This document shows, piece by piece, positions 1,144-56,735 of a stretch of DNA of 64,000 nucleotides (position 1 is the first letter of the stretch; each line of letters begins with the position of its first letter). The notes beneath the pieces are model-generated. The model was not told the origin of the DNA and ran no database searches. It saw only the letters and a list, made by a program, of their open reading frames with translations. The translations under genes and the position numbers were made by a program. Source of the DNA: Sideroxydans sp. Lineage in GTDB: Bacteria; Pseudomonadota; Gammaproteobacteria; Burkholderiales; Gallionellaceae. Location of the stretch: NCBI GenBank assembly GCA_013140695.1, contig JABFSI010000007.1, forward strand, positions 15,560 through 79,559, given 5' to 3'.

Positions 1144-1860
1144 TTAGTTACGTAAGGTTATCAATCCCCATAATATGATGCTTGGACAAACAAGCATCAG
1201 TGCGGCGACAAATGATGTCCATAAAGTAAAACCCCACATATAAAACACCAACGTTGCTAATATCAACCCTAATGCGGGACAGATCCACACCCATCGGCTG
1301 AGGGCATTATTCGCAAAGATTGGCAGGAAGCCTGGTACTCGAACCATGTAATCGCTATATTTTGGCATCCGCTGCAACAAATCAACTTCTTCCAATTTAG
1401 CCATCACTGTAAAAAATATGATGGAAAGGATAGATGCCAATAACCATGGTGCGGTGAAATGTACTAATGCAAGCCCAATAAAAACAATCAGACCGCCGGC
1501 ATATATAGGATGCCGAACATAGGCGTAAAGTCCTTTATCCATCAGTGAATCATTCATAGAAGGCATATGTGTACGCCATCCAAGCTGCAAATGACCTACA
1601 ATGACTGGCACGGCACCTGCGATTATCAAAAGCCAGCCTAATCCTTGCCCTATAGCACCCAAATTGAATATCAAGGTTGAAGTTTCACACCAAGCAAGCA
1701 CAAGGCCATAACCGTAGAGTGGTATACCTAACATATTACGCAACAGGCTGGTAACCAGCCGACCACCGTTTACACCCCACGAACGAGAAAAGGCAGTTGT
1801 AAATGCGCTAGAACCTGCAAATACAAAGCCTATTAAGAGTGGAATCAAGAAATAGTACAT
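1144..1860 (-). CDS. Isoprenylcysteine carboxyl methyltransferase (ICMT) family membrane methyltransferase, CzcN-like (copy 1 of 3)
   Basis: Multi-TM protein with GLYAYVRHPIYAGGLIVFIGLAL and EEVDLLQRMPKYSDYMVRVPGFLP, the ICMT/PEMT-type SAM-binding C-terminal signature. Confidence 0.75.
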   Translation of the reverse strand: MYYFLIPLLIGFVFAGSSAFTTAFSRSWGVNGGRLVTSLLRNMLGIPLYGYGLVLAWCETSTLIFNLGAIGQGLGWLLIIAGAVPVIVGHLQLGWRTHMPSMNDSLMDKGLYAYVRHPIYAGGLIVFIGLALVHFTAPWLLASILSIIFFTVMAKLEEVDLLQRMPKYSDYMVRVPGFLPIFANNALSRWVWICPALGLILATLVFYMWGFTLWTSFVAALMLVCPSIILWGLITLRN

Positions 1861-1889
1861 TTCAGCCTCCGTTCATGATGTAAGCCGAA

Positions 1890-2207
1890 TCAACAACAGC
1901 CATGCCCAGGTTTGTCTTTTGATTTGACTGCAAATTGCTCTGGAGATGCTTCGAAGCGATCACGGTTTTCGCGCGAGGCAAAGTAGTAGGTTCTGCCTTG
2001 GTACACCGAGGTTAGAGCAATCTGAGGATCCACTGCGTTTCCACTCACAGGATCAATATTCGATTCGGATTGTGGTTGAGCGACACCTCCATTATTATCA
2101 CTATGATGATGCCTGTTAGCACCAGAACCACAACCCATGCGGCGCATCATAAAGATTACGCCGATTACCAGAAGGATACTTATCCAGTTTTGTTCAAGCC
2201 ATGCCAT
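1890..2207 (-). CDS. Membrane-anchored YHS-domain metal-binding protein
   Basis: One N-terminal TM helix (WLEQNWISILLVIGVIFMM, like the DUF2933-type peptides at 46576 and 47197), HHHSDNN linker, YQGRTYYFASRENRDRFEASPEQF (YHS domain), C-terminal GHGCC. Confidence 0.7.
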   Translation of the reverse strand: MAWLEQNWISILLVIGVIFMMRRMGCGSGANRHHHSDNNGGVAQPQSESNIDPVSGNAVDPQIALTSVYQGRTYYFASRENRDRFEASPEQFAVKSKDKPGHGCC

Positions 2208-2224
2208 GATTATCTCCTCGTCAG

Positions 2225-2746
2225 TTACTGTAAACGGTAGTCGAATAATGCTTCGAAGGCTTCAGTTTTTTGCTTGCCTAAACGATGTACTTCTATCGCG
2301 ATGCGATAAAGTCCGCTTCTGCGTAGAAGAAAATAGTTGCCGAAGCTTTTCGTTTCTCCGATCTGCATAGGTTCCAATATCTTGCGTGTGCCGGCCATAC
2401 CAAACTCTCCTACAGTCGCAGAAATTTCCGCGTCGGTGATGCGCTTACCGCTTACATCGTAGAGTGCGACGATCAGATGGTATGCATTCTTTCCGGGCGG
2501 CACACCACCATGCATTATCCGCTCTTCATGTGTGGCAGGATGTTTAGCTGCGATCTGGGCCGGCAACAGACCATAGTAGATACTGATGCCTTTTACCTGC
2601 TGATACTGCCCAGTTTCCACTTTGTGGCTGCTTAAATCTTCCATTGCGACTGCAGCATCTGGAACCACTAAACCAAACACCACAAGAAGCGAGAGAATCT
2701 TCTGTAGGATACTAACGAACATGTCGCTCTCCTTTCTAACCATCAC
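2225..2746 (-). CDS. Secreted protein of unknown function, predicted Ig-like (FixH/YtkA-like) C-terminal half; paralog of 55764..56231
   Basis: Signal peptide. IYYGLLPAQIAAKHPATHEERIMHGG ... HLIVALYDVSGKRITDAEISATV ... KILEPMQIGETKSFGNYF ... GLYRI aligns along its length with the 155-aa ORF at 55764..56231. Confidence 0.6.
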   Translation of the reverse strand: MMVRKESDMFVSILQKILSLLVVFGLVVPDAAVAMEDLSSHKVETGQYQQVKGISIYYGLLPAQIAAKHPATHEERIMHGGVPPGKNAYHLIVALYDVSGKRITDAEISATVGEFGMAGTRKILEPMQIGETKSFGNYFLLRRSGLYRIAIEVHRLGKQKTEAFEALFDYRLQ

Positions 2747-2779: not shown

Positions 2780-5128
2780 TCAAAGCTTGGCTCGTTTAAG
2801 CAACGCCGAATTCACAATCACGGATAATGAACTCAACGCCATTGCCGCTGCCGCGATAATGGGATTAAGTAAGCCGAATGCTGCAATCGGCACGCCTATG
2901 CTGTTATAGATAAAAGCCCAGAACAGGTTCTGCTTGATTTTGCGCATGGTGGCGCGTGACAGACGTATGCTCGCCACCACGTCACGCACATCATTCTTGA
3001 TGAGGACAATGCCGCCGGTTTCCTTGGCCACATCGGAGCCGGAGCCAAGGGCGATGCCGATCTCAGCAACCGCCAGCGCGGGCGCGTCGTTAACGCCGTC
3101 GCCCACCATGGCGACTGATTTACCTTGTTTCTGTAAATCCTGAATGACTTTAGCCTTGTCTGAGGGTAACACTTCGGCAATGACGCGCTGAATACCTAGT
3201 TCTTTGGCAATGGCTTCGGCGGTGCGACGATTGTCGCCGGTAAGCATGATGACTTCCACATTTTCTTTCATGAGCTCAGCGATAGCGTCTTTGGCTTCGG
3301 GCTTGAGCGTGTCGGCCACAGCTACGACACCAGCGAGGCTGCCGTCAAGACCGACCAGCATCGCGGTCTTCCCCTGGGCTTCCAGTTTTGCCATGATTTC
3401 TTCCGCCGTCTTGGTATCAATACCTTCTCGTTCGAACAGCCTACGGTTGCCGAGAAGCGTGACCATGCCATCAACGTTGCCGCGGATGCCATGACCGGGA
3501 ATGGCCTCAAAGTTTTCCACCTTGGATAACACGAGTTCGCGGTGTTGCGCGGCACGCACGATTGCTTCGCCAAGCGGATGCTCCGAGCCGACCTCCACTG
3601 CGGCGGCGGCACGCAGAATGTCTGCCTCCGGCTGACTGCCAATAGCAATGATATCTGTGACATTAGGCTCTCCACGGGTGAGCGTCCCGGTCTTATCGAA
3701 CACCACTGTGGTGAGCTTTTCCGCACGCTCCAGCACTTCGGCACCACGAATCAGTATACCGGCCTCTGCTCCCTTGCCTACGCCCACCATCAGCGCCGCC
3801 GGGGTGGCGATGCCGAGTGCACATGGGCAGGCGATAATCAACACCGCGATAAAGGCGAGCAGCCCCTGCGGAAAGTTGCCGACCGCCCACCAGCCGAAAA
3901 AGGCTAGGAAAGCGACCCCCACCACCGCCGGGACGAAATACCCCGTCACCTTGTCGGCAAGGCGCTGTACGGCAGCAGTGCTGGTCTGGGCGTCCTCCAC
4001 CATCTTGATGATCTGCGCCAGCGCTGTCTCCGCCCCTACACGCGTGGCTTCGAAGCGGAACATGCCGGTGCGGTTGAGTGTGCCGCCGATCACCTGAGCA
4101 CCTACGGTCTTCTCCACCGGCATGGATTCTCCAGTGAGCATCGATTCGTCTACTGAGGAATCCCCTTCCAGTACCATGCCGTCGGTCGGTATTTTTTCGC
4201 CCGGCCTCACCACGATGATTTCCTTCACCATGACGCTTTCAGCCGGCACTTCCATCTCCTGCCCCTCGCGGACGACTCGGGCGGTAGCAGGCTTCAAATC
4301 CAGCAGCTTGCGCACTGCCGCTGAGGAACGTTTCTTAATGATTTCCTCCATGTATTTGCCGAGCAGCACGAAAGCGATGATGACGGCGGACACCTCAAAA
4401 TACACGTCGCGCTCCTCTACCTTCACCGGCAACACCTCGGGAAAGAATAGCACCGCCACGCTGTAGAAATAGGCTACGGACGTACCTAATGCAATGAGGA
4501 AATCCATGTTGATGGAGCGCGTGCGGATGGCGCTCCACGCGCCCTTGTAAAAGCTCCAGCCGCCGATGAACTGCACTGGTGTGACCAGCAGGAACAGCCA
4601 CATGCCCCAGGTAAACCAGGGTAAGGCTGGAATCGGTGCCCAAGTGACGATGGTGGCACCGGTGGCTAACGCAAGGAAAGCTCCTGCGCGCAGGATTGCC
4701 AGCGCCAGCACTCCGGTCATTGCGATCATGACACGGGTGCGCATGGATTTTAGTTCTTGCTCGGGCGACTCGAAAGTGCGCTGACATCCAATGCTGCAAA
4801 AATAGTAGGCGCGCCCGCCACGCTCGGTTTTCAGCGCCGTGGCCTTTTCCACCACCATGCCGCAGATCGGGTCTTTTGCTTTTTCACCGGCCATTGCACC
4901 TGCAGTTTTAGGTGCCTCGGTCATACCATGGTCATGGCTATGATTGTGACCACCGGCTTGGGCTGTTTCCGCAGACGCTTTGCCACCTCCTGTATATTTG
5001 GCAGGATTAGCTTCAAATTCATGCTGGCATTTGGATGAGCAGAAATAATATGTCCTTCCCGAATGAACAGCGTTACCTGCCGCTGATTTCTCGTTCACTG
5101 TCATTCCGCATACCAGATCAATAGCCAT
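2780..5128 (-). CDS. copA: Cu(I)-exporting P1B-1 type ATPase with TRASH/YHS-type N-terminal metal-binding modules
   Basis: TGES, CPC ([13 protein letters not shown]), [22 protein letters not shown] and [12 protein letters not shown] in the last TMs as in Cu(I) pumps. The N-terminus has two CGM...YYFCS..C modules and a [10 protein letters not shown] run instead of a CxxC HMA domain. Confidence 0.9.
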
Positions 5129-5202: not shown

Positions 5203-5691
5203 CTAATGTTGATGAAAATTCTTTTCATTATGCACCTCCAGACTTCCGACTTCGAGTTCCTCTGCATAATGCACGAACGCGCGGCACAGTTGTTCCGTCC
5301 ACCCTTCGCCCAACTGTATGCCGATTTCAGCCATCTTCGTCTCGATCTGTTCGGCTGTAGCCTGCAATAAGTCATAAGTGATCTCGATCTTGTCACCATC
5401 GACCGCGACGGACTTGATCCCCATCATCGCCTGCAAGGCTCCAATCAGACTATCGGCCTGGCTTGGGGTCAAGGATCGGGCCACGTGCATGCGCCGTTGT
5501 TTTAGCACCTCCAATCCTTCCTGTTTTGGGGCTTTTTGCCCGGGGAATCCGATGAACAAGTGGGGATTCGCCAGGAAACGGTCCCGGCACTGGGCCGAAC
5601 AAAAGGCGTAGCGCAACTGCTGATATTCGGTGGCATACATCTGAGGTTCTACTTGCATGCCACATACGGGATCTTTCACCAGTTCTTCCAT
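5203..5691 (-). CDS. TRASH/YHS-domain protein fused to an HMA-like ferredoxin-fold domain lacking CxxC
   Basis: DPVCGMQVEPQMYATEYQQLRYAFCSAQCRDRFLANP (TRASH/YHS), then LIGALQAMMGIKSVAVDGDKIEITYD (HMA-like, no Cys pair). First gene of the copA operon. Confidence 0.7.
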   Translation of the reverse strand: MEELVKDPVCGMQVEPQMYATEYQQLRYAFCSAQCRDRFLANPHLFIGFPGQKAPKQEGLEVLKQRRMHVARSLTPSQADSLIGALQAMMGIKSVAVDGDKIEITYDLLQATAEQIETKMAEIGIQLGEGWTEQLCRAFVHYAEELEVGSLEVHNEKNFHQH

Positions 5692-6352: not shown

Positions 6353-7555
6353 ATGCATCTGGAAATCTCACTTCTTGAATTCCCTGCCGTCGACGCACTG
6401 CCGCTGGAGATCGTCGAGCGTAAAGGCATAGGTCACCCGGATACCATCTGCGACGCGCTGGCCGAGGAGTTGAGTCGAACTCTGTCGAGTTATTATCTTG
6501 ACCAATTCGGTCTGATCCTGCACCACAATGTGGACAAAGCGCTACTCTGCGGAGGGCAGGCGCGCACCCATTTCGGTGGCGGCGAAGTGCTGCAACCCAT
6601 AGAGATTTATCTGGCCGGGCGGGCAACGGAGATTGTTGGTGGCATTAGAGTACCGCTTCAGGAACTCGCTATCGAAAGTAGCCGTCGCTGGCTACGCAAA
6701 AATCTGAGCTTTGTTGATGTGGAGCGACATGTGCGCCTGCATTGTCATATTCGCCCCGGTTCGGCCGAGCTTGCCGAACTGTTCCTGCGCCAACAGGATG
6801 CCAAGACAACCCTCGCCAACGACACGTCCTGCGGCGTCGGCTACGCTCCTCTCAATGCATTGGAAAACCTTGTATTACAGGTGGAACGCCATCTCAATTC
6901 CCCTGCGGTCAAGGCGGCGTGCCCAGCCATTGGAGAGGATATCAAGGTGATGGGGGTGCGGCGTGGCAGTGATATCAACCTGACCGTGGCCTGTGCCATG
7001 GTGGGGCAATTCATCACCGACATGCCAGGCTATATTTTCGCCAAGGCGCAGGTGGCAGAGTTAACGCGCGCGGCGGCAAGGATGGCGGGGGTAGAATCAA
7101 TCGAAGTAGCAGTCAACGCTGCCGATGGCGTGACGGCGGAAAGTATCTATCTAACTGTCACTGGCACTTCAGCTGAAAGCGGTGATGATGGCGAAGTTGG
7201 CCGCGGCAACCGGGTTAACGGCCTGATAACATTTTACCGCCCGATGAGCATAGAAGCCGCTGCGGGCAAGAACCCAGTGAGTCATGTCGGCAAACTATAC
7301 AATCTGCTAGCCCACCGCATCGCACAGGATATAGTCAGTAACGTGGCGGGGATTGACGAAGTATATTGCTATTTACTGGGACAAATTGGTCGACCGATTG
7401 ATGAACCTGCGGTCGCTGACCTGAAGCTGCGCCTGGCGTCAGGGGTCGGTCTGGAGGAGGTACAGATGCGCGTTAACGAAATCGTCCGCCACCACCTGAC
7501 GACTTTGGGGAACCTCTGGCGTGAACTGATTACGGGATCCATTCAGCTGTTCTAA
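6353..7555 (+). CDS. Archaeal-type S-adenosylmethionine synthetase (methionine adenosyltransferase)
   Basis: ERKGIGHPDTICD, ANDTSCGVGYAP, LTVTGTSAESGDDGEVGRGNRVNGLIT, RPMSIEAAAGKNPVSHVGKLYN: signature blocks of the archaeal MAT family rather than bacterial MetK. Only plus-strand gene in the window. Confidence 0.8.
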   Translation: MHLEISLLEFPAVDALPLEIVERKGIGHPDTICDALAEELSRTLSSYYLDQFGLILHHNVDKALLCGGQARTHFGGGEVLQPIEIYLAGRATEIVGGIRVPLQELAIESSRRWLRKNLSFVDVERHVRLHCHIRPGSAELAELFLRQQDAKTTLANDTSCGVGYAPLNALENLVLQVERHLNSPAVKAACPAIGEDIKVMGVRRGSDINLTVACAMVGQFITDMPGYIFAKAQVAELTRAAARMAGVESIEVAVNAADGVTAESIYLTVTGTSAESGDDGEVGRGNRVNGLITFYRPMSIEAAAGKNPVSHVGKLYNLLAHRIAQDIVSNVAGIDEVYCYLLGQIGRPIDEPAVADLKLRLASGVGLEEVQMRVNEIVRHHLTTLGNLWRELITGSIQLF

Positions 7556-15200: not shown

Positions 15201-15422
15201 AGCAAGTGCTGACTCAATAGGAAATGAAAGTAACTGCTCTACGTCCTCAGAAGCCAAGCCAGGCGATTCTGTATAGATATTGACTTGTACTGGGGTGACA
15301 TCCGGGAAGGCGTCTACTGGTACTTTATGCCAAGCACGGATGCCTAAGCCAGCGACGACGACAAATAAAATAATGACGAGTAGTTTGTAACGCAATGAAG
15401 CGTCAATGATTGAGTTTAGCAT
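12264..15422 (-). CDS. Heavy-metal efflux (HME) RND inner-membrane pump, CzcA/CusA family
   Basis: 1052 aa, RND topology, TM4 SANLMSLAGLAIGIGMMVDGAVVMVEN. Preceded by the MFP and OMF genes. Confidence 0.9.
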   Translation of the reverse strand: MLNSIIDASLRYKLLVIILFVVVAGLGIRAWHKVPVDAFPDVTPVQVNIYTESPGLASEDVEQLLSFPIESALAGLPKVQEIRSVSLFGLSYVAVYFEDDMDIYFARRLVAERLQEVAGRLPAGYGVPEMGPNTSGLGQVFWYTVERAEEKLEAVKVKAEPTKSAPSDMELRTLQDWSIRLILRTAPGVDDVMSWGGQERQYQIVLNPQAFAKYGLTFKEVLETVGVNNRQVGGQYVDIGQEQFLVRGLGLVKNETELGQIVVKTVNGTPVYLRDIAKIQQGGALRTGAVTRDGKEVVLGMALSRVGENAKSVVDAVKAKLTTAKQALPEGATIRTVYERTDLVNKAIDTAIRALIEGSILVAIILFLFLGEVRSALVVVAALPLAMLAAFICMDQAGLSANLMSLAGLAIGIGMMVDGAVVMVENSFRIMAERLEHGGKVNRTEAVLTAAKEVANPMAFAILIIIVVFLPLFSLQGLEGKMFKPMAFSISFAMAGSLILALTLIPVLAALFLKPKAERDTLLMRVIKRRYLPLLDWVLSHKKMVGIISGVSLVASLALFPFLGKEFMPQLQEGSIMWRVTSIPSTSLDESIAISKRIEKSLKEFPEVNTAIAMIGRAEKGETADVNYMEIYTELKPKEAWTNGRSIEQLADGMREKLEKVAPNSVIAFTQPIQMRVEELISGVRATLALKVYGGDLATLDRLSGQLKEVVDKVPGATDVSLEANIGKPQIRITVDREKLARYGMNADDVLQVVRSGIGQEPISTLIDGVRRYDIAFKLEDSAKASPAAIGAIPLRTPTGGMIPLTEVAKVDVAEGYSFIRREQLQRYAVIQLDVKGRDVDGFVKEAEANISQKVKLPTGYWIEWGGAFENQQRALTRLSIIVPLTIFFIFILLYTAFNSFKYAAMILANVPFAAVGGILALFITGQYLSVPSAIGFIAVFGVAMLNGIVLVSFFNELQDKGLSVAEAVKQGAMLRLRPVLMTASVAILGLVPMLLSSGVGAETQRPLATVVVGGLITSTLLTLLLLPVVYEWVETRAARKTNTASSTIESN

Positions 15423-15434
15423 GATCTTATCCCC

Positions 15435-16649: not shown

Positions 16650-16659
16650 GATGTTATCC

Positions 16660-18037: not shown

Positions 18038-18409
18038 CTAAACTAGAGAGAGTGTGAGAGGGGGACGATATAGCCCTTGTAAGAGTGGGCTTTCGAAAAG
18101 ATGCTTAGCGTACGGAATATCAATATTCGGTTCGTTAAATGCAAAAACATTGGTTGAGGTATTTTCCGCAAAACCAAGCAAATGAAATGCCATATGACAG
18201 CCATGGTTACACTGCTGACTCTGAGCGACATGCTCATGCTTGTTCTGGTTTTGATGGGTACTTTGCACTTCTTGGTGTAAATAAGCCGTAGTATCTTCTT
18301 TGATCGCATCGGCGATCGCATCTGGACTCATCGCCCATAGCGAAGCAAACGCCACAGAAAAGGCGACTAAAAGCGTTATCAATCTGTTGTTAATCAGATG
18401 CATTGACAA
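18038..18409 (-). CDS. CzcI-like small secreted His-rich protein
   Basis: Signal peptide, HQNQNKHEHVAQSQQCNHGCHMAFH, C-terminal YRPP. Occupies the czcI position upstream of the OMF-MFP-RND genes. Confidence 0.5.
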   Translation of the reverse strand: MSMHLINNRLITLLVAFSVAFASLWAMSPDAIADAIKEDTTAYLHQEVQSTHQNQNKHEHVAQSQQCNHGCHMAFHLLGFAENTSTNVFAFNEPNIDIPYAKHLFESPLLQGLYRPPLTLSLV

Positions 18410-18463
18410 ATGTTATATCATTTTGATCAATAATAATAATTTAAGGTATTAAATCACCAAAAA

Positions 18464-19255: not shown

Positions 19256-19307
19256 AGTTAAACCTTTAAGTTGTATTTAATACTTATGAATATTAAAGTA
19301 AATTTTT

Positions 19308-19326
19308 ATAAATGATATTCATTCTC
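19308..19326. promoter_or_regulatory. Fur-box-like sequence upstream of the FTR1 gene
   Basis: ataaatgatattcattctc; the core AATGATATTCATT matches 12 of 13 positions of the Fur consensus core AATGATAATCATT. Confidence 0.35.
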
Positions 19327-26694: not shown

Positions 26695-26695
26695 T

Positions 26696-28010: not shown

Positions 28011-28724
28011 TTATTCATTCCTTTCGGCGCCCGGTCTGGATCCCGTTTTAGCCGATGTTTGATCACTCTCGGTGGGGGCGCCGTTCCGCATTGCGGTCAG
28101 ATTGCGCCATTGACCCCAGCGCGGAACGAACCCGGGCACGCGAAGCTGGTAGGTGCGGTATTCCTCACCGAATTGATTCAGCATGCTGCGCTCCTCACTG
28201 CGTGCCAGCAAGACATATATGAACATAATAATGGGGAAAAGCGCGATGGAAAAGATGGTCGGCCAGTGGATGATGCCCTCGCCGAAAAGCGCGATAAAAA
28301 GTCCAGTATATTGGGGGTGCCGCACCAGCCCGTAGAGCCGATCCGTGATGAGCCGGTTTTCCTGTCGTGCGCGATGAAGTTCGCGCCATCCTTCCATGAA
28401 TACCCCAAGGCCGGTAAATAGAATCACATACCCGAGAATCATCGAGATCATCATGCCCGTTTCGCCGTAACCCAGCAGCGTGGACCAGAGGTTGGCATTG
28501 AGGTTAGTCTGATCGAGGCCGAAAAACCGGACGAGCAGGTAGATGGTGAGCGGAAATCCGTACATCTCCGCATAAAGGGCAATAATGAAGGCCTGGATAA
28601 CGCCGGCCCCTGCCCACTCCCTCCACGTCTTGGGAGCAAGATAGCGGTAGAGATACCACGAGATAAGTACAATTACGATCAGGGCGATGCCCCAAGCTCC
28701 AGAATGTGCGATGTGTTCTTTCAT
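28011..28724 (-). CDS. ICMT-family membrane methyltransferase (copy 2 of 3)
   Basis: LYGLVRHPQYTGLFIALFGEGIIHWPT and SEERSMLNQFGEEYRTYQLRVPGFVPRW. Confidence 0.75.
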   Translation of the reverse strand: MKEHIAHSGAWGIALIVIVLISWYLYRYLAPKTWREWAGAGVIQAFIIALYAEMYGFPLTIYLLVRFFGLDQTNLNANLWSTLLGYGETGMMISMILGYVILFTGLGVFMEGWRELHRARQENRLITDRLYGLVRHPQYTGLFIALFGEGIIHWPTIFSIALFPIIMFIYVLLARSEERSMLNQFGEEYRTYQLRVPGFVPRWGQWRNLTAMRNGAPTESDQTSAKTGSRPGAERNE

Positions 28725-28726
28725 GG

Positions 28727-28912
28727 TCAGGTTCCTTTCGTGGTGGTGGTGGTTGTCATTGTCTTTTGATTCAGGTTTTCATGTAGTTTCTGGTTCATCA
28801 AAACTTCTTGGTACCGTTCTTCAGTGCTCTGCAATTTCTTCAGTCTCAAAGACCACACGCTATATCGCAAGCCATCATTGATCGTCAGTATGCTTGGGTT
28901 AGTTGGTTTCAT
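28727..28912 (-). CDS. Hypothetical 61-codon ORF translationally coupled to the ICMT gene
   Basis: Start taken at MKPTNPS. Its stop is 2 nt from the ICMT ATG. Ends in a Thr run. No recognisable motif. Confidence 0.3.
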   Translation of the reverse strand: MKPTNPSILTINDGLRYSVWSLRLKKLQSTEERYQEVLMNQKLHENLNQKTMTTTTTTKGT

Positions 28913-52083: not shown

Positions 52084-53406
52084 CTAACAATAAATATCGC
52101 GCCGCGTGAACGGGACCGGGCTGGAAAATGGTTTACGCTTGGAAACCAAAATTTGATATATCCCGGTATTCCCTTCTTCAAATTGCATGGCGCAAGCTGC
52201 CATATACAGCCGCCAGACACGATAGACGGGTTCGGTCACATAGTTCAGCGCTTCTTCGTGCCCCACTTCGAGTCGTTTTACCCACTCGCGTAGCGTCAGT
52301 GCGTAGTGCTGCCTTAGGTCTTCAACATCGTGAATCTCAAAACCGCCATCTTCCATGAGAGCTTGAACCGTGCTGACAGTCTCAAGCTGACCATCAGGGA
52401 ACACATAGCGATTGATGAATTCGGTCGAAACAGTCTTCTTCCAACCGCCTTCATCACTGGTGATGCCGTGGTTGAGGAACAGTCCGCCGGGCTTCAACAT
52501 GCGATTGGCAATGGCAAAATAGGTTGGCAAATTCTTCAAGCCTACGTGCTCGAACATCCCCACACTCACCAGCTTGTCATACTTGGCCTCGCCCTGGAGA
52601 TCGCGGTAATCCAGAAGTTCGACGGAAACCTGCTCTTCGAGCCCGCGGGACTTAATCGTTCGTTGCGCATGCTCGTACTGATTCTGACTTAACGTAATGC
52701 CATGCGCAATGACGCCGTAATGTTCCGCAGCCCAGCAGACCAGCGCACCCCAGCCGCAACCGATGTCGAGCAGTCGCTCGCCGGGTTTTAGCCGCAGTTT
52801 GCGGCAAATATGATCAAGTTTGTTACGTTGCGCTCGTTCTAGGCTTTGGCTGGCATCCTCGTAATAGGCGCAGGAGTAGACCATCTGTTCATCCAGCCAC
52901 AGCGCATAGAAATCGTTGGAAACGTCATAATGAAAGGAAATGGAATGGCGGTTGAGTTTCTTGCTGGATTTGATCCCGAGCTTTTGTCCTAGGGTTTTTC
53001 TCCATTGCGGCGTGGTGTCGACGATTGATAAGGTTTTGTCTGGCTTAACCCTGAGTGCCTTGGCCACCAGAGCAGCCTTGTCCAGCAGGGATAGTTGCAA
53101 CGAAGTCAGGTAGTGACGCAATTTGATGGCACTATAAAAGTCGCCATCCACATCGACAAGCCCTTGAAAATAAAACTCCGCGAAATGTAGCGGATCGCGC
53201 GACAGGATTAGAGCCTGGAAAGCCTTTGAACAGCGGAAGGTCAGCGAAAACTCTGGGTGACCATGACCAAGATGGATTTTGGAACCGTCCCAAAGGCATA
53301 TGTGAATATTGCCATCATAATCCCGAAAAAGGCGATACAGGATATGTTTGGCCAGGTCAGCGCCAAACATTGCCGACTGCACAATCATTTCTGAAGAATT
53401 TTTCAT
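52084..53406 (-). CDS. cfa: Cyclopropane-fatty-acyl-phospholipid synthase family SAM-dependent methyltransferase
   Basis: HYDVSNDFYALWLD, LLDIGCGWGAL (SAM motif I), VSVGMFEHVG, YMAACAMQFE. Confidence 0.85.
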   Translation of the reverse strand: MKNSSEMIVQSAMFGADLAKHILYRLFRDYDGNIHICLWDGSKIHLGHGHPEFSLTFRCSKAFQALILSRDPLHFAEFYFQGLVDVDGDFYSAIKLRHYLTSLQLSLLDKAALVAKALRVKPDKTLSIVDTTPQWRKTLGQKLGIKSSKKLNRHSISFHYDVSNDFYALWLDEQMVYSCAYYEDASQSLERAQRNKLDHICRKLRLKPGERLLDIGCGWGALVCWAAEHYGVIAHGITLSQNQYEHAQRTIKSRGLEEQVSVELLDYRDLQGEAKYDKLVSVGMFEHVGLKNLPTYFAIANRMLKPGGLFLNHGITSDEGGWKKTVSTEFINRYVFPDGQLETVSTVQALMEDGGFEIHDVEDLRQHYALTLREWVKRLEVGHEEALNYVTEPVYRVWRLYMAACAMQFEEGNTGIYQILVSKRKPFSSPVPFTRRDIYC

Positions 53407-53544: not shown

Positions 53545-53952
53545 TTACATGCCTTCTATCACTTCAATAAGATTGCATAACGTACTATCATCAGTCGCCT
53601 CATCTGGCATTCTCTGCCACAGCGCAAATGCACTTTCCATCCTGCGCTGTAAAACAGTCAGATTTTCCAAAGCGCGGCTGTTTTCTTCGATACGTCTTTT
53701 GATAATTTCCCTTACCTTGGGACAAGGCGATTTACCCTGACGGCGGGTTTCAAAAATTTCGCCAATTTCTGCCAGGGTAAATCCCAGTCCTCGGGCATGA
53801 CGGATAAACCGCACGCACTTCACATCGGCCGGACTGTACTGCTTATAATTGTTGATTGGATTACGAAGCGGCTTTAGTAAACCAATCCGAGTGTAGTAAC
53901 GGATAACTTCTGAAGCGAGTCCCGTCTGCCTAGCCAGTTCAACAACAATCAT
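53545..53952 (-). CDS. MerR-family metal-responsive regulator (copy 2)
   Basis: VVELARQTGLASEVIRYYTRIGLL HTH, Cys77 (SPCPKVR), Cys126 (CNLIEVI). Confidence 0.85.
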   Translation of the reverse strand: MIVVELARQTGLASEVIRYYTRIGLLKPLRNPINNYKQYSPADVKCVRFIRHARGLGFTLAEIGEIFETRRQGKSPCPKVREIIKRRIEENSRALENLTVLQRRMESAFALWQRMPDEATDDSTLCNLIEVIEGM

Positions 53953-54003: not shown

Positions 54004-54708
54004 TTAATGTTGCGTCGGGGTGAGTCGCCGCCACATGAGATGCTCATATACGCCGGACCAATAAAGGCCAAAGGTAAAGGCGAACAGCAACTCTTCCAGC
54101 GGGATGCCGAGCAACAGAATTCCGGTGAGCGTCGGCAGGTTCCACACACGCTCGACATAACCGGGGGCGCTCGCTATCAGCGCGATGAAGAAGACGAAGT
54201 AGTAAGCGAGAAACAGCAGGCCGCCAATCCAGGTCTTGGTTTTCAGGTCGGGCCGGCAGGCCATGGTGGCAATTGCTCCCGCCGCCATCGCGGCAATGGA
54301 AGGATAGATCGGATTCCACGGCAGGAAATAAAGCGCCAGAAAAACGATGACTGGCGAGATGAGAGCTTTGTAATGATGGCGGTGCAAGGGTGCGCGTTTT
54401 TCCGGTTCCGGTACGGCTATATCGTTGCGGTGAGCGAGGATAGAATAGAGCACAGAACCTACGCCGCTTATGCCGAAGACGAAGATCAGGCTTTCCAGGT
54501 CGAAGCCGGTTCTCTGCGCCAGGTCAAAAAGCGTAGGAGGATTCCAGTACTCGGGAACGAACAGCGGTTCGGTCAGACCGAAAGGAGTGGTTACCAGGCT
54601 GACGTGCCACATAGTCTTGCGATGGGCTGGAAAAACAATAAACAGCGCAACCCAGGGAATCAAGAATAACGATGCCCATACAAGCCAGACATATTGAAAT
54701 GGAATCAT
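54004..54708 (-). CDS. Lycopene-cyclase-domain membrane protein
   Basis: Start set at MIPFQYVW, preceded by GGAGAG. 7 TM with TEPLFVPEYW and GIPLEELLFAFTFG (PxEE-type motifs of CrtYc/d-like domains). Confidence 0.55.
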   Translation of the reverse strand: MIPFQYVWLVWASLFLIPWVALFIVFPAHRKTMWHVSLVTTPFGLTEPLFVPEYWNPPTLFDLAQRTGFDLESLIFVFGISGVGSVLYSILAHRNDIAVPEPEKRAPLHRHHYKALISPVIVFLALYFLPWNPIYPSIAAMAAGAIATMACRPDLKTKTWIGGLLFLAYYFVFFIALIASAPGYVERVWNLPTLTGILLLGIPLEELLFAFTFGLYWSGVYEHLMWRRLTPTQH

Positions 54709-54820
54709 GCAGGCTCTCCGACGTGAGAACAAAAAAAAGTGGCGGCAACCTGCCGGATTGATCTTCCCTCGGGGCGTGAACAAAGTGTCAAAAAGTGCAT
54801 CCCGAATATCCTTTCTGACA

Positions 54821-55474
54821 TTACGTCGGCAGATCTGTTTGCTTGTTGAATTTCGGCCAGAATGCCGGTGTTTTGGCGGCATAGTGCCGGTATTCCTCGC
54901 CAAATTCGGCTATTGCATCCTGCTCCTCGCGTCTCGCAAGCCGCAGATACATGAACACCAAGACAGGAAACATCACTAATGTAATAAGTGTGGGCCACTG
55001 CAACAGGAAGCCGGTCATGATCAGGACAAAGCCGACATACTGCGGATGCCGCATACTCGCATAGAGCTCGGTAGTTGCAAGCCTATGCTGGCTTTGAGCC
55101 TGGTACAGCACGCGCCACGCCGATGACACCATGATGAACCCGCCAAATATCAGAATATTGCTCAGCATATGAAACGGACCGAAGTGCGGATTGGAGCGCC
55201 AACCGAAAATAATTTCAAGCAGATGTCCCGCATCGTGTGACAGAAAATTGATATCCGGGAACTGCTTTGATAGCCACGGAAACAACAGATAAATCGTCAG
55301 TGGGAAGCCGTACATTTCGGTGAACAACGCTATAAGGAAGGCAGAGAAGGCGCCGAACGAGCGCCAGTCGCGCGGGGTTTTAGGCTTGGTGAAGCTGAAT
55401 GCAAAAATGATGAAAACCAGCGAATTGATGATCACAAGGGACCAAAGGCCATAGGCCGGGGTTGCGTCGGTCAT
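54821..55474 (-). CDS. ICMT-family membrane methyltransferase (copy 3 of 3)
   Basis: LYASMRHPQYVGFVLIMTGFLLQWPT and REEQDAIAEFGEEYRHYAAKTPAFWPKF. Confidence 0.75.
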   Translation of the reverse strand: MTDATPAYGLWSLVIINSLVFIIFAFSFTKPKTPRDWRSFGAFSAFLIALFTEMYGFPLTIYLLFPWLSKQFPDINFLSHDAGHLLEIIFGWRSNPHFGPFHMLSNILIFGGFIMVSSAWRVLYQAQSQHRLATTELYASMRHPQYVGFVLIMTGFLLQWPTLITLVMFPVLVFMYLRLARREEQDAIAEFGEEYRHYAAKTPAFWPKFNKQTDLPT

Positions 55475-55476
55475 GA

Positions 55477-55740
55477 TTACTCCTTTTTATCTTGTTCGTT
55501 GTTGTTAGGATCTGCCTTGTGATCGCCATGCCCACCATGGAACGAATGCAACAGCGGGCAAGCCAGCAGCAATAGAAAAGGCAAAAAACCAAACAGATGA
55601 GCACGGTGCTCGGTAAACAGGAAAAAACCTGCCACGATCAGAAAACCAATCAAGGCCAGCTTTTGCTTCGAGACACCAGATACTTTTTGATGATGTTCGT
55701 GTTCATGCGTCGTCATATCATTTCTCCTATCGGCCAGCAC
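55477..55740 (-). CDS. DUF2933-type His-rich small membrane protein
   Basis: HEHEHHQK N-terminus, two TMs, LLLACPLLHSFHGGHGDH. Confidence 0.7.
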   Translation of the reverse strand: MLADRRNDMTTHEHEHHQKVSGVSKQKLALIGFLIVAGFFLFTEHRAHLFGFLPFLLLLACPLLHSFHGGHGDHKADPNNNEQDKKE

Positions 55741-55763: not shown

Positions 55764-56231
55764 TCAGTTTGCTGGCAAACGGTATTCAAATTCGGTTTTC
55801 GTTGTACCTCCCTTTCCAGGGCGTGTAATGCGAAGCTCAATGCGGAAAGGGCCACTACCTATCATGTTAAAGTAATTCCCATAGCTCATCGTGCCATTGA
55901 TTTGCATCGGTTCGAGCAGCTTCTGCTGATGCGCCAAACCGAGCGGTATCACCACGGCCTCGACCTTCGCGTCATTGATCCGCTGCGTAATTTTGTTGTC
56001 GTACAACGTCACAACAAGATGATGCGTTCCACTAGGCAAAACGCTCTTGCCGTGCATATCGCTTTCAACATGTTTCTGCGGATGGCTCTTCACAACATTG
56101 GCCGGTACTACCCCGTAGTAAATATCCATACCGTTCACTAGGTGGTGCTGATCGATGCCGTTGGCCAATGATGCAGCTACAGTGAGCACCAAAGCTATCC
56201 CCAAAGAATATCTGTAAATTTTACTGATCAT
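55764..56231 (-). CDS. Secreted protein of unknown function, paralog of 2225..2746
   Basis: Signal peptide. IYYGVVPANVVKSHPQKHVESDMHG ... HHLVVTLYDNKITQRINDAKVEAVV ... KLLEPMQINGTMSYGNYF. Confidence 0.6.
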   Translation of the reverse strand: MISKIYRYSLGIALVLTVAASLANGIDQHHLVNGMDIYYGVVPANVVKSHPQKHVESDMHGKSVLPSGTHHLVVTLYDNKITQRINDAKVEAVVIPLGLAHQQKLLEPMQINGTMSYGNYFNMIGSGPFRIELRITRPGKGGTTKTEFEYRLPAN

Positions 56232-56245
56232 GATGACTGACTCCT

Positions 56246-56677
56246 TTATTCCACCGAAAACACCGTAAGGGTTTCTCCATCTTTAGGTATGTTGTAAACC
56301 GCCAAGGTGCCCTTCTTCACCTCACCCATCCCCGGTGAATTCATCGGCATGCCTGGTACGCTAATACCAGTGATGGCGGGCTTCTCCTTGAGCAGTTTGT
56401 TAATAGCACTCACCGGAACGTGCCCCTCGACCACATAGCCATTGATTAGTGCTGTATGGCAACTGGCAACACGCGCCACGCCGTAACGTTTTTTGACGTT
56501 ATCCATATCGTTTTGATCGATGGCCTTGACCACAAAGCCATTCTCTCTCAAATAATCAACGTACTTCTTGCAACAACCGCAAGTCGGGCTTTTATAAACA
56601 GTAACGGCCTGTCCGGCGAGTGCAACAGCCGAGTTCAATGTCAGCGCAACCGCACAAATACGTATCCATAACTTCAT
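56246..56677 (-). CDS. DUF411 (CopG-like) periplasmic metal-binding protein
   Basis: Start set at MKLWIRIC, preceded by AAGGAGA. CGCCKKY, ASCHTALINGYVVEGHVP, GMPMNSPGMG. Confidence 0.8.
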   Translation of the reverse strand: MKLWIRICAVALTLNSAVALAGQAVTVYKSPTCGCCKKYVDYLRENGFVVKAIDQNDMDNVKKRYGVARVASCHTALINGYVVEGHVPVSAINKLLKEKPAITGISVPGMPMNSPGMGEVKKGTLAVYNIPKDGETLTVFSVE

Positions 56678-56735
56678 GGTTTTTCTCCTTGTCAAAATAT
56701 CAGTGGGCATGCCTATCATGGGAATATTTAGAGGC

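What the first reader, a model, noticed from the sequence alone, without database searches (positions are those of the whole stretch)
1144..2746. Twice-repeated three-gene module: secreted Ig-like protein, tiny His-rich membrane protein, ICMT-type methyltransferase
- Minus-strand order 2746->1144 is: a 173-aa secreted protein; a 105-aa protein with one TM helix, a His-rich linker and a YHS domain; and a 238-aa ICMT/CzcN-like methyltransferase.
- Order 56231->54821 is: a 155-aa secreted paralog; an 87-aa DUF2933-type His-rich TM protein; and a 217-aa ICMT-type methyltransferase.
- The two secreted proteins align over their whole length: IYYG..PA....HP..H.E..MHG..P.G..HL.V.LYD.....I.DA.V.A.V..G.....K.LEPM.I.G..S.GNYF....G.YRI. 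The synteny therefore looks ancestral.
- A third ICMT paralog (28011..28724) follows a tightly coupled 61-codon ORF.
- To my knowledge none of the partners has a defined role. CzcN of Cupriavidus is the nearest named relative and is uncharacterised.
- The methyl acceptor during metal stress is unknown. This is my best candidate for an undescribed system.
Basis: partly seen in the sequence, partly recalled or inferred. Interest (0 to 1): 0.7.

Follow-up and report, generated by a model that had tools for sequence, protein, structure and literature searches.

The report
Copper-pump accessory genes with membrane methyltransferases
Two gene trios in a metal-resistance island are real and recur in many bacteria, but they are loosely combined add-ons to copper-export pumps: a periplasmic copper-binding protein, plus a small metal-binding membrane protein paired with a membrane methyltransferase whose target is still unknown.

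Summary
All ORFs and domain calls are confirmed. The two secreted proteins are true paralogs (44% identity, E 1e-33). The two small membrane proteins are not homologous (YHS versus DUF2933), and the two methyltransferases share only 24% identity.

The secreted protein belongs to an unnamed family of about 900 representative clusters. Its predicted fold matches the copper-binding P19/FetP/FtrA proteins, and it has near-invariant His/Met/Glu residues.

In 59 species-level loci holding this family:
- 32 carry a P1B ATPase within 6 kb.
- 28 carry an ICMT/PEMT-type or Cys-Pro-hairpin-linked methyltransferase.
- 26 carry DUF2933, always on the same strand.

DUF2933-ICMT is a far larger, translationally coupled pair. 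It also sits next to P1B ATPases without the secreted protein. A merR-copA-cupredoxin-DUF2933-ICMT core cluster is already published, with no function assigned. The trios are therefore modular accessories of copper pumps, not an ancestral triplet.

New here: C1 carries a two-helix Cys-Pro hairpin. The same hairpin is fused to an unrelated class I methyltransferase elsewhere, and it occurs free just after YHS-type ATPase genes.

The methyl acceptor is unresolved; I favour a membrane lipid or other lipophilic substrate. Verdict: new variant of a known, uncharacterised kind.

The parts
5203..5691 (-). 162-aa cytoplasmic YHS-domain protein; first gene of the module-1 operon
   Evidence: PF04945, E 3e-11. 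The same gene precedes the ATPase in L062, L063, L065 and L002.
2780..5128 (-). P1B-1 type copper-exporting ATPase with two N-terminal YHS/TRASH domains and a CPC motif
   Evidence: TIGR01511 copper ATPase subfamily, 599.7 bits against a cut-off of 397. Pfam E1-E2_ATPase, Hydrolase and YHS x2. 'IIACPCALG' can be read in the translation.
2225..2746 (-). A1: secreted His/Met-rich beta-sandwich protein of an unnamed P19/FetP-like family (likely true start 2722)
1890..2207 (-). B1: single-TM protein with a GCG motif, a His run, a YHS domain lacking its cysteines, and an invariant C-terminal HGCC
   Evidence: PF04945, 42.5 bits. Family alignment. Hydropathy.
1144..1860 (-). C1: PEMT/ICMT-superfamily membrane methyltransferase with a C-terminal Cys-Pro hairpin
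   Evidence: Pfam PEMT, DUF1295 and ICMT. RHPxY and EE motifs are invariant.
1147..1311 (-). C-terminal two-helix hairpin of C1 (residues 184-238) with two intramembrane Cys-Pro motifs. The module is shared with class I methyltransferase fusions and with free 55-96 aa proteins.
   Evidence: BLASTP E 1e-11 and 8e-12. 90 clusters of free proteins. Contexts.
6353..7555 (+). Archaeal-type S-adenosylmethionine synthetase, divergent from the module-1 operon
   Evidence: PF01941, E 8e-160. NF003366, 528 bits. Recurs in L062, L063, L092, L024, L030, L044 and L053.
56246..56719 (-). DUF411 (CopG-type) periplasmic protein directly upstream of A2
   Evidence: PF04214, E 2e-26. Same order in L028, L067 and L068.
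55764..56231 (-). A2: secreted paralog of A1
   Evidence: 44% identity, E 1e-33. The identical protein occurs on 19 public contigs.
55477..55740 (-). B2: DUF2933 two-TM protein with EHRAH loop, ACPLLH motif and His-rich tails (likely start 55716)
   Evidence: PF11666, 72.5 bits. Family sequences. Hydropathy.
54821..55474 (-). C2: ICMT-type membrane methyltransferase; its start lies 2 nt after the B2 stop
   Evidence: PF04140, 33.9 bits. Matches PDB 4A2N at E 6e-9. At least 8000 homolog clusters.
54743..54755 (-). Terminator-like hairpin plus T-run 66 nt after the C2 stop
   Evidence: This is a consensus match only; the number of such sites in the region is not above the shuffles.
54004..54708 (-). 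Lycopene-cyclase-domain membrane protein (234 aa as called elsewhere)
   Evidence: PF18916. Recurs in L002, L031, L055, L065 and L093-96.
53545..53952 (-). MerR-family regulator
52084..53406 (-). Cyclopropane-fatty-acid-synthase-family methyltransferase
   Evidence: PF02353, E 1e-100. CfaB model 392 bits, below its cut-off of 650. Recurs near the cassettes.
28011..28724 (-). C3: third ICMT-type paralog, followed by MFS, HlyD, ABC and ABC-2 genes
   Evidence: Closest relative is in L013 (67% identity), where a small YHS protein precedes it.
28727..28909 (-). 61-codon ORF upstream of C3; not supported as a gene
   Evidence: No Pfam or NCBIfam hit. No tblastn hit in the fetched loci.

Best explanation
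The two trios are not one three-protein machine. They are combinations of separate accessory units that gather around copper(I)-exporting P1B ATPases in mobile metal-resistance islands.

Unit 1 (A1, A2) is a periplasmic beta-sandwich protein of the P19/FetP fold. Its conserved Glu, Met-His, His and Met residues most likely bind copper on the exit side of the pump. There it would buffer copper or hand it on. It occupies the operon slot that a cupredoxin holds in the published merR-copA-cupredoxin-DUF2933-ICMT cluster.

Unit 2 is a pair: a very small inner-membrane protein with Cys/His metal-binding motifs, plus an integral-membrane SAM-dependent methyltransferase. The small partner comes in three forms:
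- DUF2933, with ACPLMH in its second helix.
- A membrane-tethered YHS protein ending in HGCC.
- The two-helix Cys-Pro hairpin fused to C1.

I infer that the small partner senses or carries Cu(I) at the cytoplasmic face of the membrane, next to the pump. I also infer that it localises or gates the methyltransferase. The methyltransferase would then methylate a lipophilic membrane substrate, most likely a lipid head group or another inner-leaflet lipid, so that the membrane binds copper less or is damaged less by it.

The island-encoded SAM synthetase and the cyclopropane-fatty-acid-synthase-like enzyme would belong to the same SAM-driven membrane response.

Shown: the domain identities, the fold match, the conserved residues, the gene linkage, the translational coupling and the domain fusions.

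Inferred: copper binding by A, the topology, the partner-enzyme interaction, and above all the methyl acceptor.
For: Pump context:
- Module 1 lies in a compact same-strand run: YHS protein, copper ATPase, A1, B1, C1, with gaps of 17-74 nt. The ATPase passes the TIGR01511 cut-off.
- The same run is conserved in Methylotenera contigs and in L065/L066.

Protein A:
- Model pLDDT 79.
- The top 27 Foldseek hits are all P19/FtrA/FetP/HftA, DUF4426 or CrdA, best E 6.5e-6, TM 0.55-0.61.
- 17 of 46 family members give weak PF10634 hits.
- Profile-profile E 6e-5 against P19. The FetP ligands His44, Glu46 and Met90 align to H73, E75 and M127.
- Over 176 sequences: H90 in 175, H79 in 169, M127 in 163, M78 in 162, E75 in 152.
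- No Cys, 6-8 His and 5-6 Met.
- One family member is fused to cytochrome c.
- A2 follows a DUF411/CopG-type gene.

Linkage over the 59 loci:
- P1B ATPase in 32; ICMT/PEMT-type or hairpin-linked methyltransferase in 28; DUF2933 in 26, all on the same strand.

B-C coupling:
- Stop and start overlap, or are 1-2 nt apart, in L065, L067, L070, L075, L083, L085 and L086.
- The pair is adjacent to P1B ATPases in Nostoc, Acinetobacter and Alteromonas plasmids.

Fusions and SAM theme:
- The Cys-Pro hairpin of C1 is also fused to class I methyltransferases lying between the ATPase and A.
- The hairpin occurs free 12-17 nt after YHS-type ATPase genes.
- SAM-binding motifs are intact in C1-C3.
- SAM synthetase and CMAS genes recur nearby.

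Literature: the published core cluster is PMC8478169.
Against: - No experiment or direct computation here shows copper binding by A, contact between B and C, or any substrate for C.
- A1 and A2 do not reach any Pfam threshold. The P19 ligands His97 and His127 are not conserved in A, and the profile alignment has only 65% probability.
- An alternative register would pair H90, rather than H73, with FetP His44.
- In this window module 2 has no ATPase directly beside it.
- About half of the A loci lack B and C, and most DUF2933-ICMT pairs lack A. Any functional tie between A and B-C may therefore be indirect, through the pump.
- The lipid target rests only on family resemblance. The PEMT hit is 39 bits, and LmtA (24-38 bits) is far below its cut-off.
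- The class I methyltransferases fused to the hairpin look more like ArsM, UbiE or CpaM than like any lipid methyltransferase.
- Promoter and terminator scans are not above shuffled controls.
Confidence: 0.5

Rival explanations
1. The methyltransferases methylate a small thiol, sulfide, or a soft metal(loid) held on cysteine thiolates. This would resemble MddA (methanethiol S-methyltransferase) or ArsM. The Cys-Pro hairpin or DUF2933 would present the substrate, and the product would leave the cell.
For: - MddA is the best or second-best NCBIfam hit for C1-C3.
- Some sources name close C2 homologs 'methanethiol S-methyltransferase'.
- The class I enzymes fused to the Cys-Pro hairpin score best against the ArsM and CpaM models, at 90-101 bits.
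- Two unrelated methyltransferase folds share one Cys-bearing membrane module. That fits a simple acceptor defined by the module.
Against: - All scores are far below the family cut-offs: MddA 30-37 against 270, ArsM subfamily 91-94 against 263.
- The adjacent pump is a copper-type ATPase, and no SAM-dependent copper methylation is known.
- C2 and C3 have no cysteine.
Confidence: 0.15
2. The small partner is itself the substrate. The ICMT-type enzyme methyl-esterifies the C-terminal cysteine of the HGCC-tailed protein B1, a bacterial counterpart of eukaryotic prenyl-cysteine methylation. This would change B1's membrane association or its metal affinity.
For: - The C-terminal HGCC is invariant in all four B1-family sequences seen.
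- B1 is followed by a C1-type enzyme wherever the contig continues: the window and L062-L066.
- C1-C3 keep the SAM-binding motifs of the solved ICMT structure 4A2N.
Against: - DUF2933 partners have variable C-termini without cysteine, so the idea cannot hold for the far commoner DUF2933-ICMT pair.
- No prenyltransferase or CaaX protease lies nearby.
- C1-C3 reach 27-48 bits against a cut-off of 160 for the ICMT equivalog model.
- A vicinal C-terminal Cys-Cys is also a plain soft-metal ligand, as in MerA (from my own knowledge).
Confidence: 0.08
3. The co-location is hitch-hiking. A, B and C are independent cargo of a mosaic island, and the methyltransferases do housekeeping membrane work unrelated to metals.
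For: - GC content ranges from 0.40 to 0.62 across the window.
- Module 2 is identical on 19 contigs, which suggests recent transfer.
- A occurs without B and C, and B-C occurs without A.
Against: - The genes lie on the same strand with short gaps.
- The B-C junctions overlap.
- The order A, DUF2933, ICMT repeats in about 13 species of several proteobacterial classes.
- B-C lies beside P1B ATPases in Cyanobacteria and Gammaproteobacteria.
- The membrane module is fused to methyltransferases inside ATPase operons.
Confidence: 0.12
4. A is an iron-uptake P19/FetP-type protein rather than a copper-resistance protein.
For: - Fold and weak profile similarity to P19/FetP.
- An FTR1-family permease is present in the window at 18464-19255.
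Against: - A1 and A2 are not adjacent to the FTR1 gene, and no FTR1 homolog was found in any of the 59 loci.
- The constant neighbours are P1B ATPases, DUF411, MerR and DUF2933-ICMT.
- FetP ligands His97 and His127 are missing.
Confidence: 0.05

Closest known systems
merR-copA-cupredoxin-DUF2933-ICMT 'core gene cluster' of Alteromonas and other marine Gammaproteobacteria (Cusick et al. 2021, PMC8478169)
   Same: - A P1B copper ATPase is followed by a small secreted beta-sandwich protein, then DUF2933, then an ICMT-family methyltransferase.
- The cluster sits on genomic islands and plasmids.
- The accessory genes have no assigned function.
   Different: - The secreted protein here is not a cupredoxin. 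hhalign of the Alteromonas PF13473 protein against the A family gives 1% probability.
- Module 1 replaces DUF2933-ICMT with a YHS-HGCC protein and a PEMT-type enzyme carrying a Cys-Pro hairpin.
- Module 2 has no adjacent ATPase in this window.
P19 / FetP / FtrA / HftA periplasmic copper-binding proteins of Ftr-type iron uptake (Pfam PF10634; PDB 3NRQ, 7R5E, 8VV5, 8T7L)
   Same: - Predicted Ig-like beta-sandwich fold.
- Weak profile similarity.
- Equivalents of the His, Glu and Met copper ligands are conserved.
   Different: - A1 and A2 are below the Pfam threshold.
- His97 and His127 equivalents are absent.
- A extra conserved HPxxHxExxMHGG loop is present.
- The genes are linked to P1B ATPases rather than to FTR1 permeases.
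CzcN / NccN of Cupriavidus metallidurans
   Same: A membrane-bound ICMT-family protein of about 216 aa encoded inside a metal-efflux determinant, with unknown biochemistry (PMC7563307).
   Different: - CzcN accompanies an RND system (czcNICBA), not a P1B ATPase.
- I did not compare the CzcN sequence directly with C1-C3.
Methanosarcina ICMT (PDB 4A2N), MddA, and Leptospira LmtA
   Same: The C-terminal SAM-binding module, with its RHPxY and EE...Y motifs, is shared.
   Different: Scores are 24-48 bits against equivalog cut-offs of 160-325. C1-C3 are therefore superfamily members, not orthologs of any characterised enzyme.
Helicobacter pylori CrdA and Pseudomonas PA0388 (DUF4426)
   Same: Small secreted beta-sandwich proteins that appear among the best fold matches. 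CrdA is a copper-resistance determinant.
   Different: Sequence identity is only 10-14%. Three of 46 family members give weak DUF4426 hits.

Membership tests
ICMT/PEMT superfamily (Pfam PF04140, PF04191) | Score above the Pfam gathering threshold | tested here: met
   C1: PEMT 39.2 against 25, ICMT 27.1 against 24. C2: ICMT 33.9 against 24. C3: PEMT 27.4 against 25, ICMT 25.3 against 24.
ICMT/PEMT superfamily (Pfam PF04140, PF04191) | C-terminal SAM-binding motifs (RHPxY...EE...Y..Y...P) | tested here: met
   Invariant in C1, C2, C3 and six homologs. They align to 4A2N residues 100-192.
Protein-S-isoprenylcysteine O-methyltransferase proper (NF040696) | Equivalog score of at least 160 bits | tested here: not met
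   27.0, 47.7 and 46.6 bits.
Protein-S-isoprenylcysteine O-methyltransferase proper (NF040696) | Prenylated C-terminal cysteine as substrate | not testable with these tools
   Needs biochemistry. No prenyltransferase or CaaX protease was seen near the genes.
MddA methanethiol S-methyltransferase (NF045656) | Equivalog score of at least 270 bits | tested here: not met
   34.6, 29.7 and 37.1 bits.
LmtA lipid A 1-phosphate methyltransferase (TIGR04571) | Score of at least 325 bits | tested here: not met
   24.2, 38.5 and 31.9 bits.
DUF2933 (PF11666) | Pfam score above 21 bits, plus two TM helices with the ACPLMH motif | tested here: met
   B2 scores 72.5 bits. B1 does not match: E >= 0.1 against a DUF2933 HMM.
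YHS/TRASH domain (PF04945) | Pfam score above 30.3 bits | tested here: met
   B1 scores 42.5 bits.
YHS/TRASH domain (PF04945) | Cysteine ligands of the metal site (the C..C...C pattern seen in the ATPase N-terminus) | tested here: not met
   B1 reads DPVSG...YYFASRENRDRF where the ATPase reads DLVCG...[12 protein letters not shown]. The cysteines are replaced throughout the B1 family.
P19/FetP 'Iron_transport' family (PF10634) | Pfam score above the gathering threshold | tested here: not met
   A1 and A2 have no hit even at E <= 1. 17 of 46 relatives give weak hits, best E 1.8e-4. One relative, P0105, just reaches the threshold.
P19/FetP 'Iron_transport' family (PF10634) | Ig-like beta-sandwich fold | tested here: met
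   Foldseek E 6.5e-6 to 5e-4, TM 0.5-0.64, against 7R5E, 3NRQ, 8VV5 and 8T7L. The model has pLDDT 79.
P19/FetP 'Iron_transport' family (PF10634) | Copper ligands His44, Glu46, Met90, His97 and His127 (FetP numbering) | tested here: inconclusive
   hhalign pairs H73, E75 and M127 with His44, Glu46 and Met90. The His97 position is Ser or Thr, and His127 lies outside the alignment. The alignment probability is 65%.
P19/FetP 'Iron_transport' family (PF10634) | Adjacent FTR1-type permease | tested here: not met
   No FTR1 homolog in the 59 loci. The window's FTR1 gene is 16 kb away from module 1.
Published copA core cluster (PMC8478169) | P1B ATPase, secreted beta-sandwich protein, DUF2933 and ICMT in one same-strand run | tested here: met
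   Seen in L003, L007, L009, L010, L017 and L036 among others. In the window the elements are split between module 1 (ATPase present) and module 2 (DUF2933-ICMT present).
Published copA core cluster (PMC8478169) | The secreted protein is a cupredoxin (PF13473) | tested here: not met
   The Alteromonas protein matches PF13473 at E 8e-26 but has 1% hhalign probability against the A family.
CzcN/NccN | Sequence orthology to Cupriavidus CzcN, and location in a czcNICBA operon | not tested
   The CzcN sequence was not retrieved. The window's RND genes (12264-17967) are not adjacent to C1-C3.

The most novel reading that the evidence does not exclude
Cys/His-bearing mini-membrane proteins (DUF2933, the YHS-HGCC protein, the Cys-Pro hairpin) are Cu(I)-sensing subunits. 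They dock onto P1B ATPases and switch on a dedicated methyltransferase. This would be a previously unrecognised, SAM-consuming branch of bacterial copper defence.

Its product could be a methylated membrane lipid or quinone. For the HGCC protein it could be a methyl-esterified C-terminal cysteine, which would be the first bacterial analogue of eukaryotic ICMT chemistry.

The same hairpin is fused to two unrelated methyltransferase folds, and a private SAM synthetase recurs nearby. Both observations argue that methylation itself is the selected function.
Probability: 0.12. Interest if true: 0.85.

Novelty: new variant of a known kind. Interest (0 to 1): 0.5.

Why it matters
ICMT-family genes such as czcN have sat inside metal-resistance determinants since the 1990s with no known function. 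The DUF2933-ICMT pair is very common: at least 8000 protein clusters, and 273 plasmids including Acinetobacter plasmids from human clinical isolates.

This locus adds three usable handles:
- An unnamed P19-like periplasmic family, about 900 representative clusters, tied to copper pumps.
- Evidence that the methyltransferase always comes with a tiny Cys/His membrane partner, which can be one of three unrelated kinds.
- A Cys-Pro hairpin that is fused to two different methyltransferase folds and otherwise sits directly after the pump gene.

Together these turn 'unknown methyl acceptor' into a short list of experiments. If the methylation step protects membranes or tunes the pump, it would be a new layer of copper and silver resistance on mobile elements.

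Tried and rejected
- Sequence search of A against PDB chains: no hits with the 10-sequence profile. With the 46-sequence profile, only a marginal HftA hit (E 0.02) over the C-terminal half.
- The search for related loci with the 46-sequence alignment failed because no stretch was conserved enough. The 10-sequence alignment worked.
- B1 as a divergent DUF2933: rejected, E >= 0.1. One small protein in L028 does mix features of both.
- C1's Cys-Pro hairpin as a DUF2933 relative: rejected, E about 0.08 in a two-sequence search.
- Proteins next to DUF2933-ICMT in L075 (169 aa) and L085 (143 aa) as hidden A-family members: rejected, hhalign probability 0.1-1.5%.
- The 123-aa ORF beside the window's FTR1 gene as a P19 relative: rejected.
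- The 61-codon ORF before C3 as a conserved partner: no homolog found.
- A PmtA-like identity for the class I methyltransferase fusions, which would have paralleled PEMT: not supported. Their best models are CpaM, ArsM and UbiE, all below cut-off.
- Promoter and terminator scans gave nothing above shuffled expectation.
- A1's exact sequence is not in the contig index.
- Literature searches found no functional study of DUF2933 or of bacterial metal-linked ICMT genes.


Full report
**1. Observation**

Module 1:
- A1 (2225-2746) has no Pfam or NCBIfam match.
- B1 (1890-2207) has one hydrophobic helix, a His run and a YHS domain (PF04945, E 6e-11).
- C1 (1144-1860) passes the PEMT and ICMT thresholds.

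Module 2:
- A2 (55764-56231) has no family match.
- B2 (55477-55740) is DUF2933 at 72.5 bits.
- C2 (54821-55474) is ICMT-type.

A third ICMT-type gene, C3, lies at 28011-28724.

Pairwise comparisons:
- A1 and A2 share 44% identity over the whole mature domain, E 1e-33.
- B1 and B2 show no similarity. A DUF2933 HMM built from 24 sequences does not detect the B1 family.
- C1 and C2 share 24% identity, E 3e-8.
- C2 and C3 share 33% identity.

The repeat is therefore one of gene order and protein class. Homology is clear only for the secreted protein.

Homologs and an invariant Met9 suggest that A1 starts at 2722, giving 165 aa. Gene callers on identical contigs start B2 at 55716, giving 79 aa. 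The 61-codon ORF before C3 has no family hit and no homolog in any fetched locus.

**2. Surroundings**

The window is a mosaic metal-resistance island, with GC content from 0.40 to 0.62. It holds:
- three P1B ATPases;
- a CzcCBA-like RND system;
- ZIP and FTR1 transporters;
- two MerR regulators;
- a DUF411/CopG-type protein.

Module 1 is the tail of a compact run. A 162-aa YHS protein (5203-5691) comes first. Next is a copper-type P1B ATPase (2780-5128) with two YHS domains and a CPC motif, scoring 600 bits on TIGR01511 against a cut-off of 397. A1, B1 and C1 follow, with gaps of 17-74 nt. An archaeal-type SAM synthetase (6353-7555) is transcribed divergently from this run.

Module 2 runs in this order:
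- beta-CASP hydrolase;
- DUF411;
- A2;
- B2;
- C2, whose start lies 2 nt after the B2 stop;
- a terminator-like hairpin at 54755-54743;
- a lycopene-cyclase-domain protein;
- MerR;
- a cyclopropane-fatty-acid-synthase-family enzyme.

**3. The secreted protein**

A word-seeded search found only 31 close relatives, all named 'hypothetical'. An exhaustive profile search found 918 representative clusters at E <= 1e-3 and 633 at E <= 1e-10. RefSeq plasmid records also call these proteins hypothetical.

An AlphaFold model (pLDDT 79) is an eight- to nine-strand beta sandwich. Its best 27 Foldseek matches in the PDB are all one of the following: P19/FtrA/FetP/HftA copper-binding proteins of Ftr-type iron uptake, the DUF4426 protein PA0388, or the H. 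pylori copper-resistance protein CrdA. The best E-value is 6.5e-6, with TM scores of 0.55-0.61.

Weaker sequence evidence agrees. Seventeen of 46 family members give sub-threshold PF10634 hits. A profile-profile comparison with three P19 sequences gives E 6e-5 at 65% probability. In that alignment:
- FetP ligands His44 and Glu46 pair with A1 H73 and E75.
- Met90 pairs with M127.
- His97 is replaced by Ser or Thr.
- His127 lies outside the aligned region.

An alternative register pairs strand residue H90 with His44.

Over 176 family sequences, H90 is present in 175, H79 in 169, M127 in 163, M78 in 162 and E75 in 152. A1 and A2 contain no cysteine. One family member is fused to a cytochrome c domain.

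I conclude that A is a divergent, unnamed branch of the P19-like fold with a His/Met/Glu site that most likely binds copper in the periplasm. Copper binding is inferred, not shown.

**4. Linkage**

A scan of one genome per GTDB species returned 59 loci with an A homolog, spread across Beta-, Gamma- and Alphaproteobacteria. I called ORFs in these loci and searched them with profiles seeded from the window proteins. Within 6 kb of A:

| Neighbour | Loci (of 59) |
|---|---|
| P1B ATPase | 32 (31 on the same strand) |
| ICMT/PEMT-type or hairpin-linked methyltransferase | 28 |
| DUF2933 | 26 (all on the same strand) |
| DUF2933 plus a C2/C3-type enzyme | 22 |
| A followed directly by DUF2933 then ICMT, as in module 2 | about 13 |

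The weakest A relatives (below 35% identity, in Paraburkholderia and Bradyrhizobium) lack these neighbours.

Module 1's exact order is conserved in Methylotenera MAG contigs at 79% A identity: divergent SAM synthetase, YHS protein, YHS-ATPase, A, YHS-107 and PEMT-238. It is also conserved in L065/L066 at 63% identity. There the C1-type gene is followed by a further DUF2933-ICMT pair and by HlyD, ABC and ABC-2 genes, matching what follows C3 in the window.

The A2 protein sequence occurs unchanged on 19 public contigs, and the three contexts shown carry the same gene order as module 2. One of them belongs to the same Methylotenera MAG that holds the module-1 homolog.

A1-like genes at 58-67% identity also occur beside ATPases without B or C.

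**5. The DUF2933-ICMT pair is the larger entity**

C2 has at least 8000 homolog clusters, many at 75-80% identity. It matches 273 plasmids, including Nostoc (67% identity), Streptomyces, Acinetobacter plasmids from human clinical isolates, and an archaeal plasmid.

Sampled contexts:
- DUF2933, ICMT, P1B ATPase, with overlapping stop and start codons and no A gene (L070-L079, Acinetobacter L085).
- YHS, ATPase, DUF2933, ICMT (Nostoc L084).
- MerR, ATPase, cupredoxin, DUF2933, ICMT (Alteromonas L083).

The last of these is the 'core gene cluster' already reported on genomic islands of many marine bacteria, with no function proposed for DUF2933 or the methyltransferase (PMC8478169). The Alteromonas cupredoxin (PF13473) is not detectably related to A. 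A and the cupredoxin are therefore alternative occupants of the same slot.

CzcN is described only as a membrane-bound ICMT-like protein (PMC7563307).

**6. The small partners and a domain fusion**

DUF2933 proteins share two helices, an EHRAH loop, an ACPLMHxFMHGGHG motif and variable His-rich tails.

In every B1-family sequence seen, the protein has:
- an N-terminal helix;
- a GCG motif and a His run;
- a YHS domain whose cysteines are replaced;
- a C-terminal HGCC.

C1 has two extra C-terminal helices (residues 184-238), each containing a Cys-Pro motif. This hairpin is 51% and 38% identical (E 1e-11 and 8e-12) to the N-terminus of proteins in Sulfuricella (L043, L010) and Aromatoleum (L003). 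In those proteins, and in a similar one in L016, the hairpin is fused to a class I Rossmann-fold SAM methyltransferase. In L043, L010 and L003 that gene lies between the P1B ATPase and the A gene. Only L043 and L003 were compared pairwise with C1.

A profile of the hairpin finds 90 clusters of free 55-96 aa proteins with no Pfam family. In all three sampled contexts the free protein starts 12-17 nt after a YHS-type P1B ATPase gene. One of these contexts continues with two A-family genes, DUF2933, ICMT and a YHS protein.

So one membrane module accompanies the pump either alone or fused to methyltransferases of two unrelated folds.

Other recurrent neighbours:
- SAM synthetase of the archaeal type recurs in L062, L063, L092, L024, L030, L044 and L053.
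- CMAS-family genes recur in several loci.
- FtsH recurs in several loci.

**7. Mechanism**

Shown:
- domain identities;
- intact SAM-binding motifs in C1-C3;
- the fold and conserved residues of A;
- same-strand linkage, translational coupling and the fusions.

Inferred: A binds copper on the periplasmic side of the pump. The Cys/His mini-proteins bind Cu(I) at the cytoplasmic face next to the pump, and they localise or gate a methyltransferase acting on a lipophilic membrane substrate.

I favour a lipid or other inner-leaflet molecule as the acceptor, for four reasons:
- C1-C3 are integral-membrane enzymes of the PEMT/ICMT/LmtA superfamily.
- A fatty-acid-modifying methyltransferase recurs nearby.
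- A lycopene-cyclase-domain protein recurs nearby.
- A dedicated SAM synthetase is often present.

This is the weakest link. All matches to characterised enzymes are far below equivalog cut-offs, and the class I fusion partners look most like ArsM, UbiE or CpaM.

Three rival readings remain open: S-methylation of a thiol or of a cysteine-bound metal(loid), methyl-esterification of the HGCC tail of B1, and mere hitch-hiking. The report sections give the test that would refute each.

**8. Comparison and verdict**

The locus is a new variant of a known but uncharacterised kind, namely the copper-ATPase accessory cluster with DUF2933 and an ICMT-family enzyme, related in theme to czcN.

New here:
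- the P19-like family in the cupredoxin slot;
- a second, non-homologous partner-enzyme pair (YHS-HGCC plus PEMT-hairpin);
- the shuffling of the Cys-Pro hairpin between methyltransferase folds.

Interest is moderate. Nothing here breaks a rule, but the locus gives concrete handles on a long-standing unknown that is common on resistance plasmids.

Noticed in passing
window 1147-1311 (-); L043:5066-5920, L010:5096-5920, L003:5093-5932, L016:3-1130; L086-L092: A two-helix hairpin with two intramembrane Cys-Pro motifs has no Pfam family. It appears at the C-terminus of C1 and at the N-terminus of class I SAM methyltransferases. Mostly it is a free 55-96 aa protein placed 12-17 nt after YHS-type P1B ATPase genes.
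   Followed up: yes
window 6353-7555 (+): An archaeal-type SAM synthetase (PF01941) lies in a bacterial metal island, divergent from the copper-ATPase operon. The same pairing recurs in L062, L063 and L092, and within 6 kb of A genes in L024, L030, L044 and L053. It could be a metal-tolerant or dedicated SAM supply.
   Followed up: partly
window 1890-2207 (-): The B1 family's YHS domain has lost all its cysteines, yet every member ends in HGCC. The vicinal C-terminal cysteines, not the YHS fold, look like the metal site.
   Followed up: partly
window 60242-63088 (-): A 948-aa fusion combines an NAD-dependent epimerase/dehydratase domain, two HMBD heavy-metal-binding domains, a VKOR domain and SPW repeats. 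This is an unusual architecture and I did not examine it further.
   Followed up: no
window 18038-20784 (-): An FTR1-family permease (18464-19255) is flanked by two ORFs with no Pfam family (123 aa and 415 aa). The 123-aa ORF is not P19-like by hhalign, so the usual P19 partner seems absent.
   Followed up: partly
window 52084-53406 (-) and 54004-54708 (-): A CFA-synthase-family methyltransferase and a lycopene-cyclase-domain membrane protein recur next to DUF2933-ICMT cassettes in many loci (L010, L028, L061, L065, L089-L096). This hints at a wider membrane-lipid theme.
   Followed up: partly
L089-L092; L060:5032-6933: An FtsH protease gene directly follows the free Cys-Pro hairpin gene in several contigs. 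In Burkholderia vietnamiensis plasmid pBVIE02 it sits between ICMT and the A gene.
   Followed up: no
window 56736-58094 (-): A beta-CASP metallo-beta-lactamase-fold protein lies upstream of DUF411 and A2. Homologs occur within 6 kb of A in 7 of the 59 loci.
   Followed up: no
L028:10115-10342: A 75-aa protein has a B1-like N-terminus (DWLVQNW plus a helix) and a DUF2933-like MHLFGHGGHG motif. It may be an evolutionary bridge between the two small-protein types.
   Followed up: partly
L086:4183-4674: A divergent A-family paralog (hhalign E 6.5e-27) lacks the HPxxHxExxMHGG loop. It is encoded just before a canonical A gene, immediately after the free hairpin gene.
   Followed up: partly
window 21784-28724 (-): C3 is followed by MFS, HlyD, ABC ATPase and two ABC-2 permease genes. 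The same HlyD, ABC, ABC-2 set follows DUF2933-ICMT in L065 and follows A in L096.
   Followed up: partly
window 33782-38614 (-): An HMA-type P1B ATPase is followed by a thymidine/pyrimidine-phosphorylase-like gene and a ribose-phosphate-pyrophosphokinase-like gene. The same three-gene run follows an A1-like gene in L093-L095.
   Followed up: no
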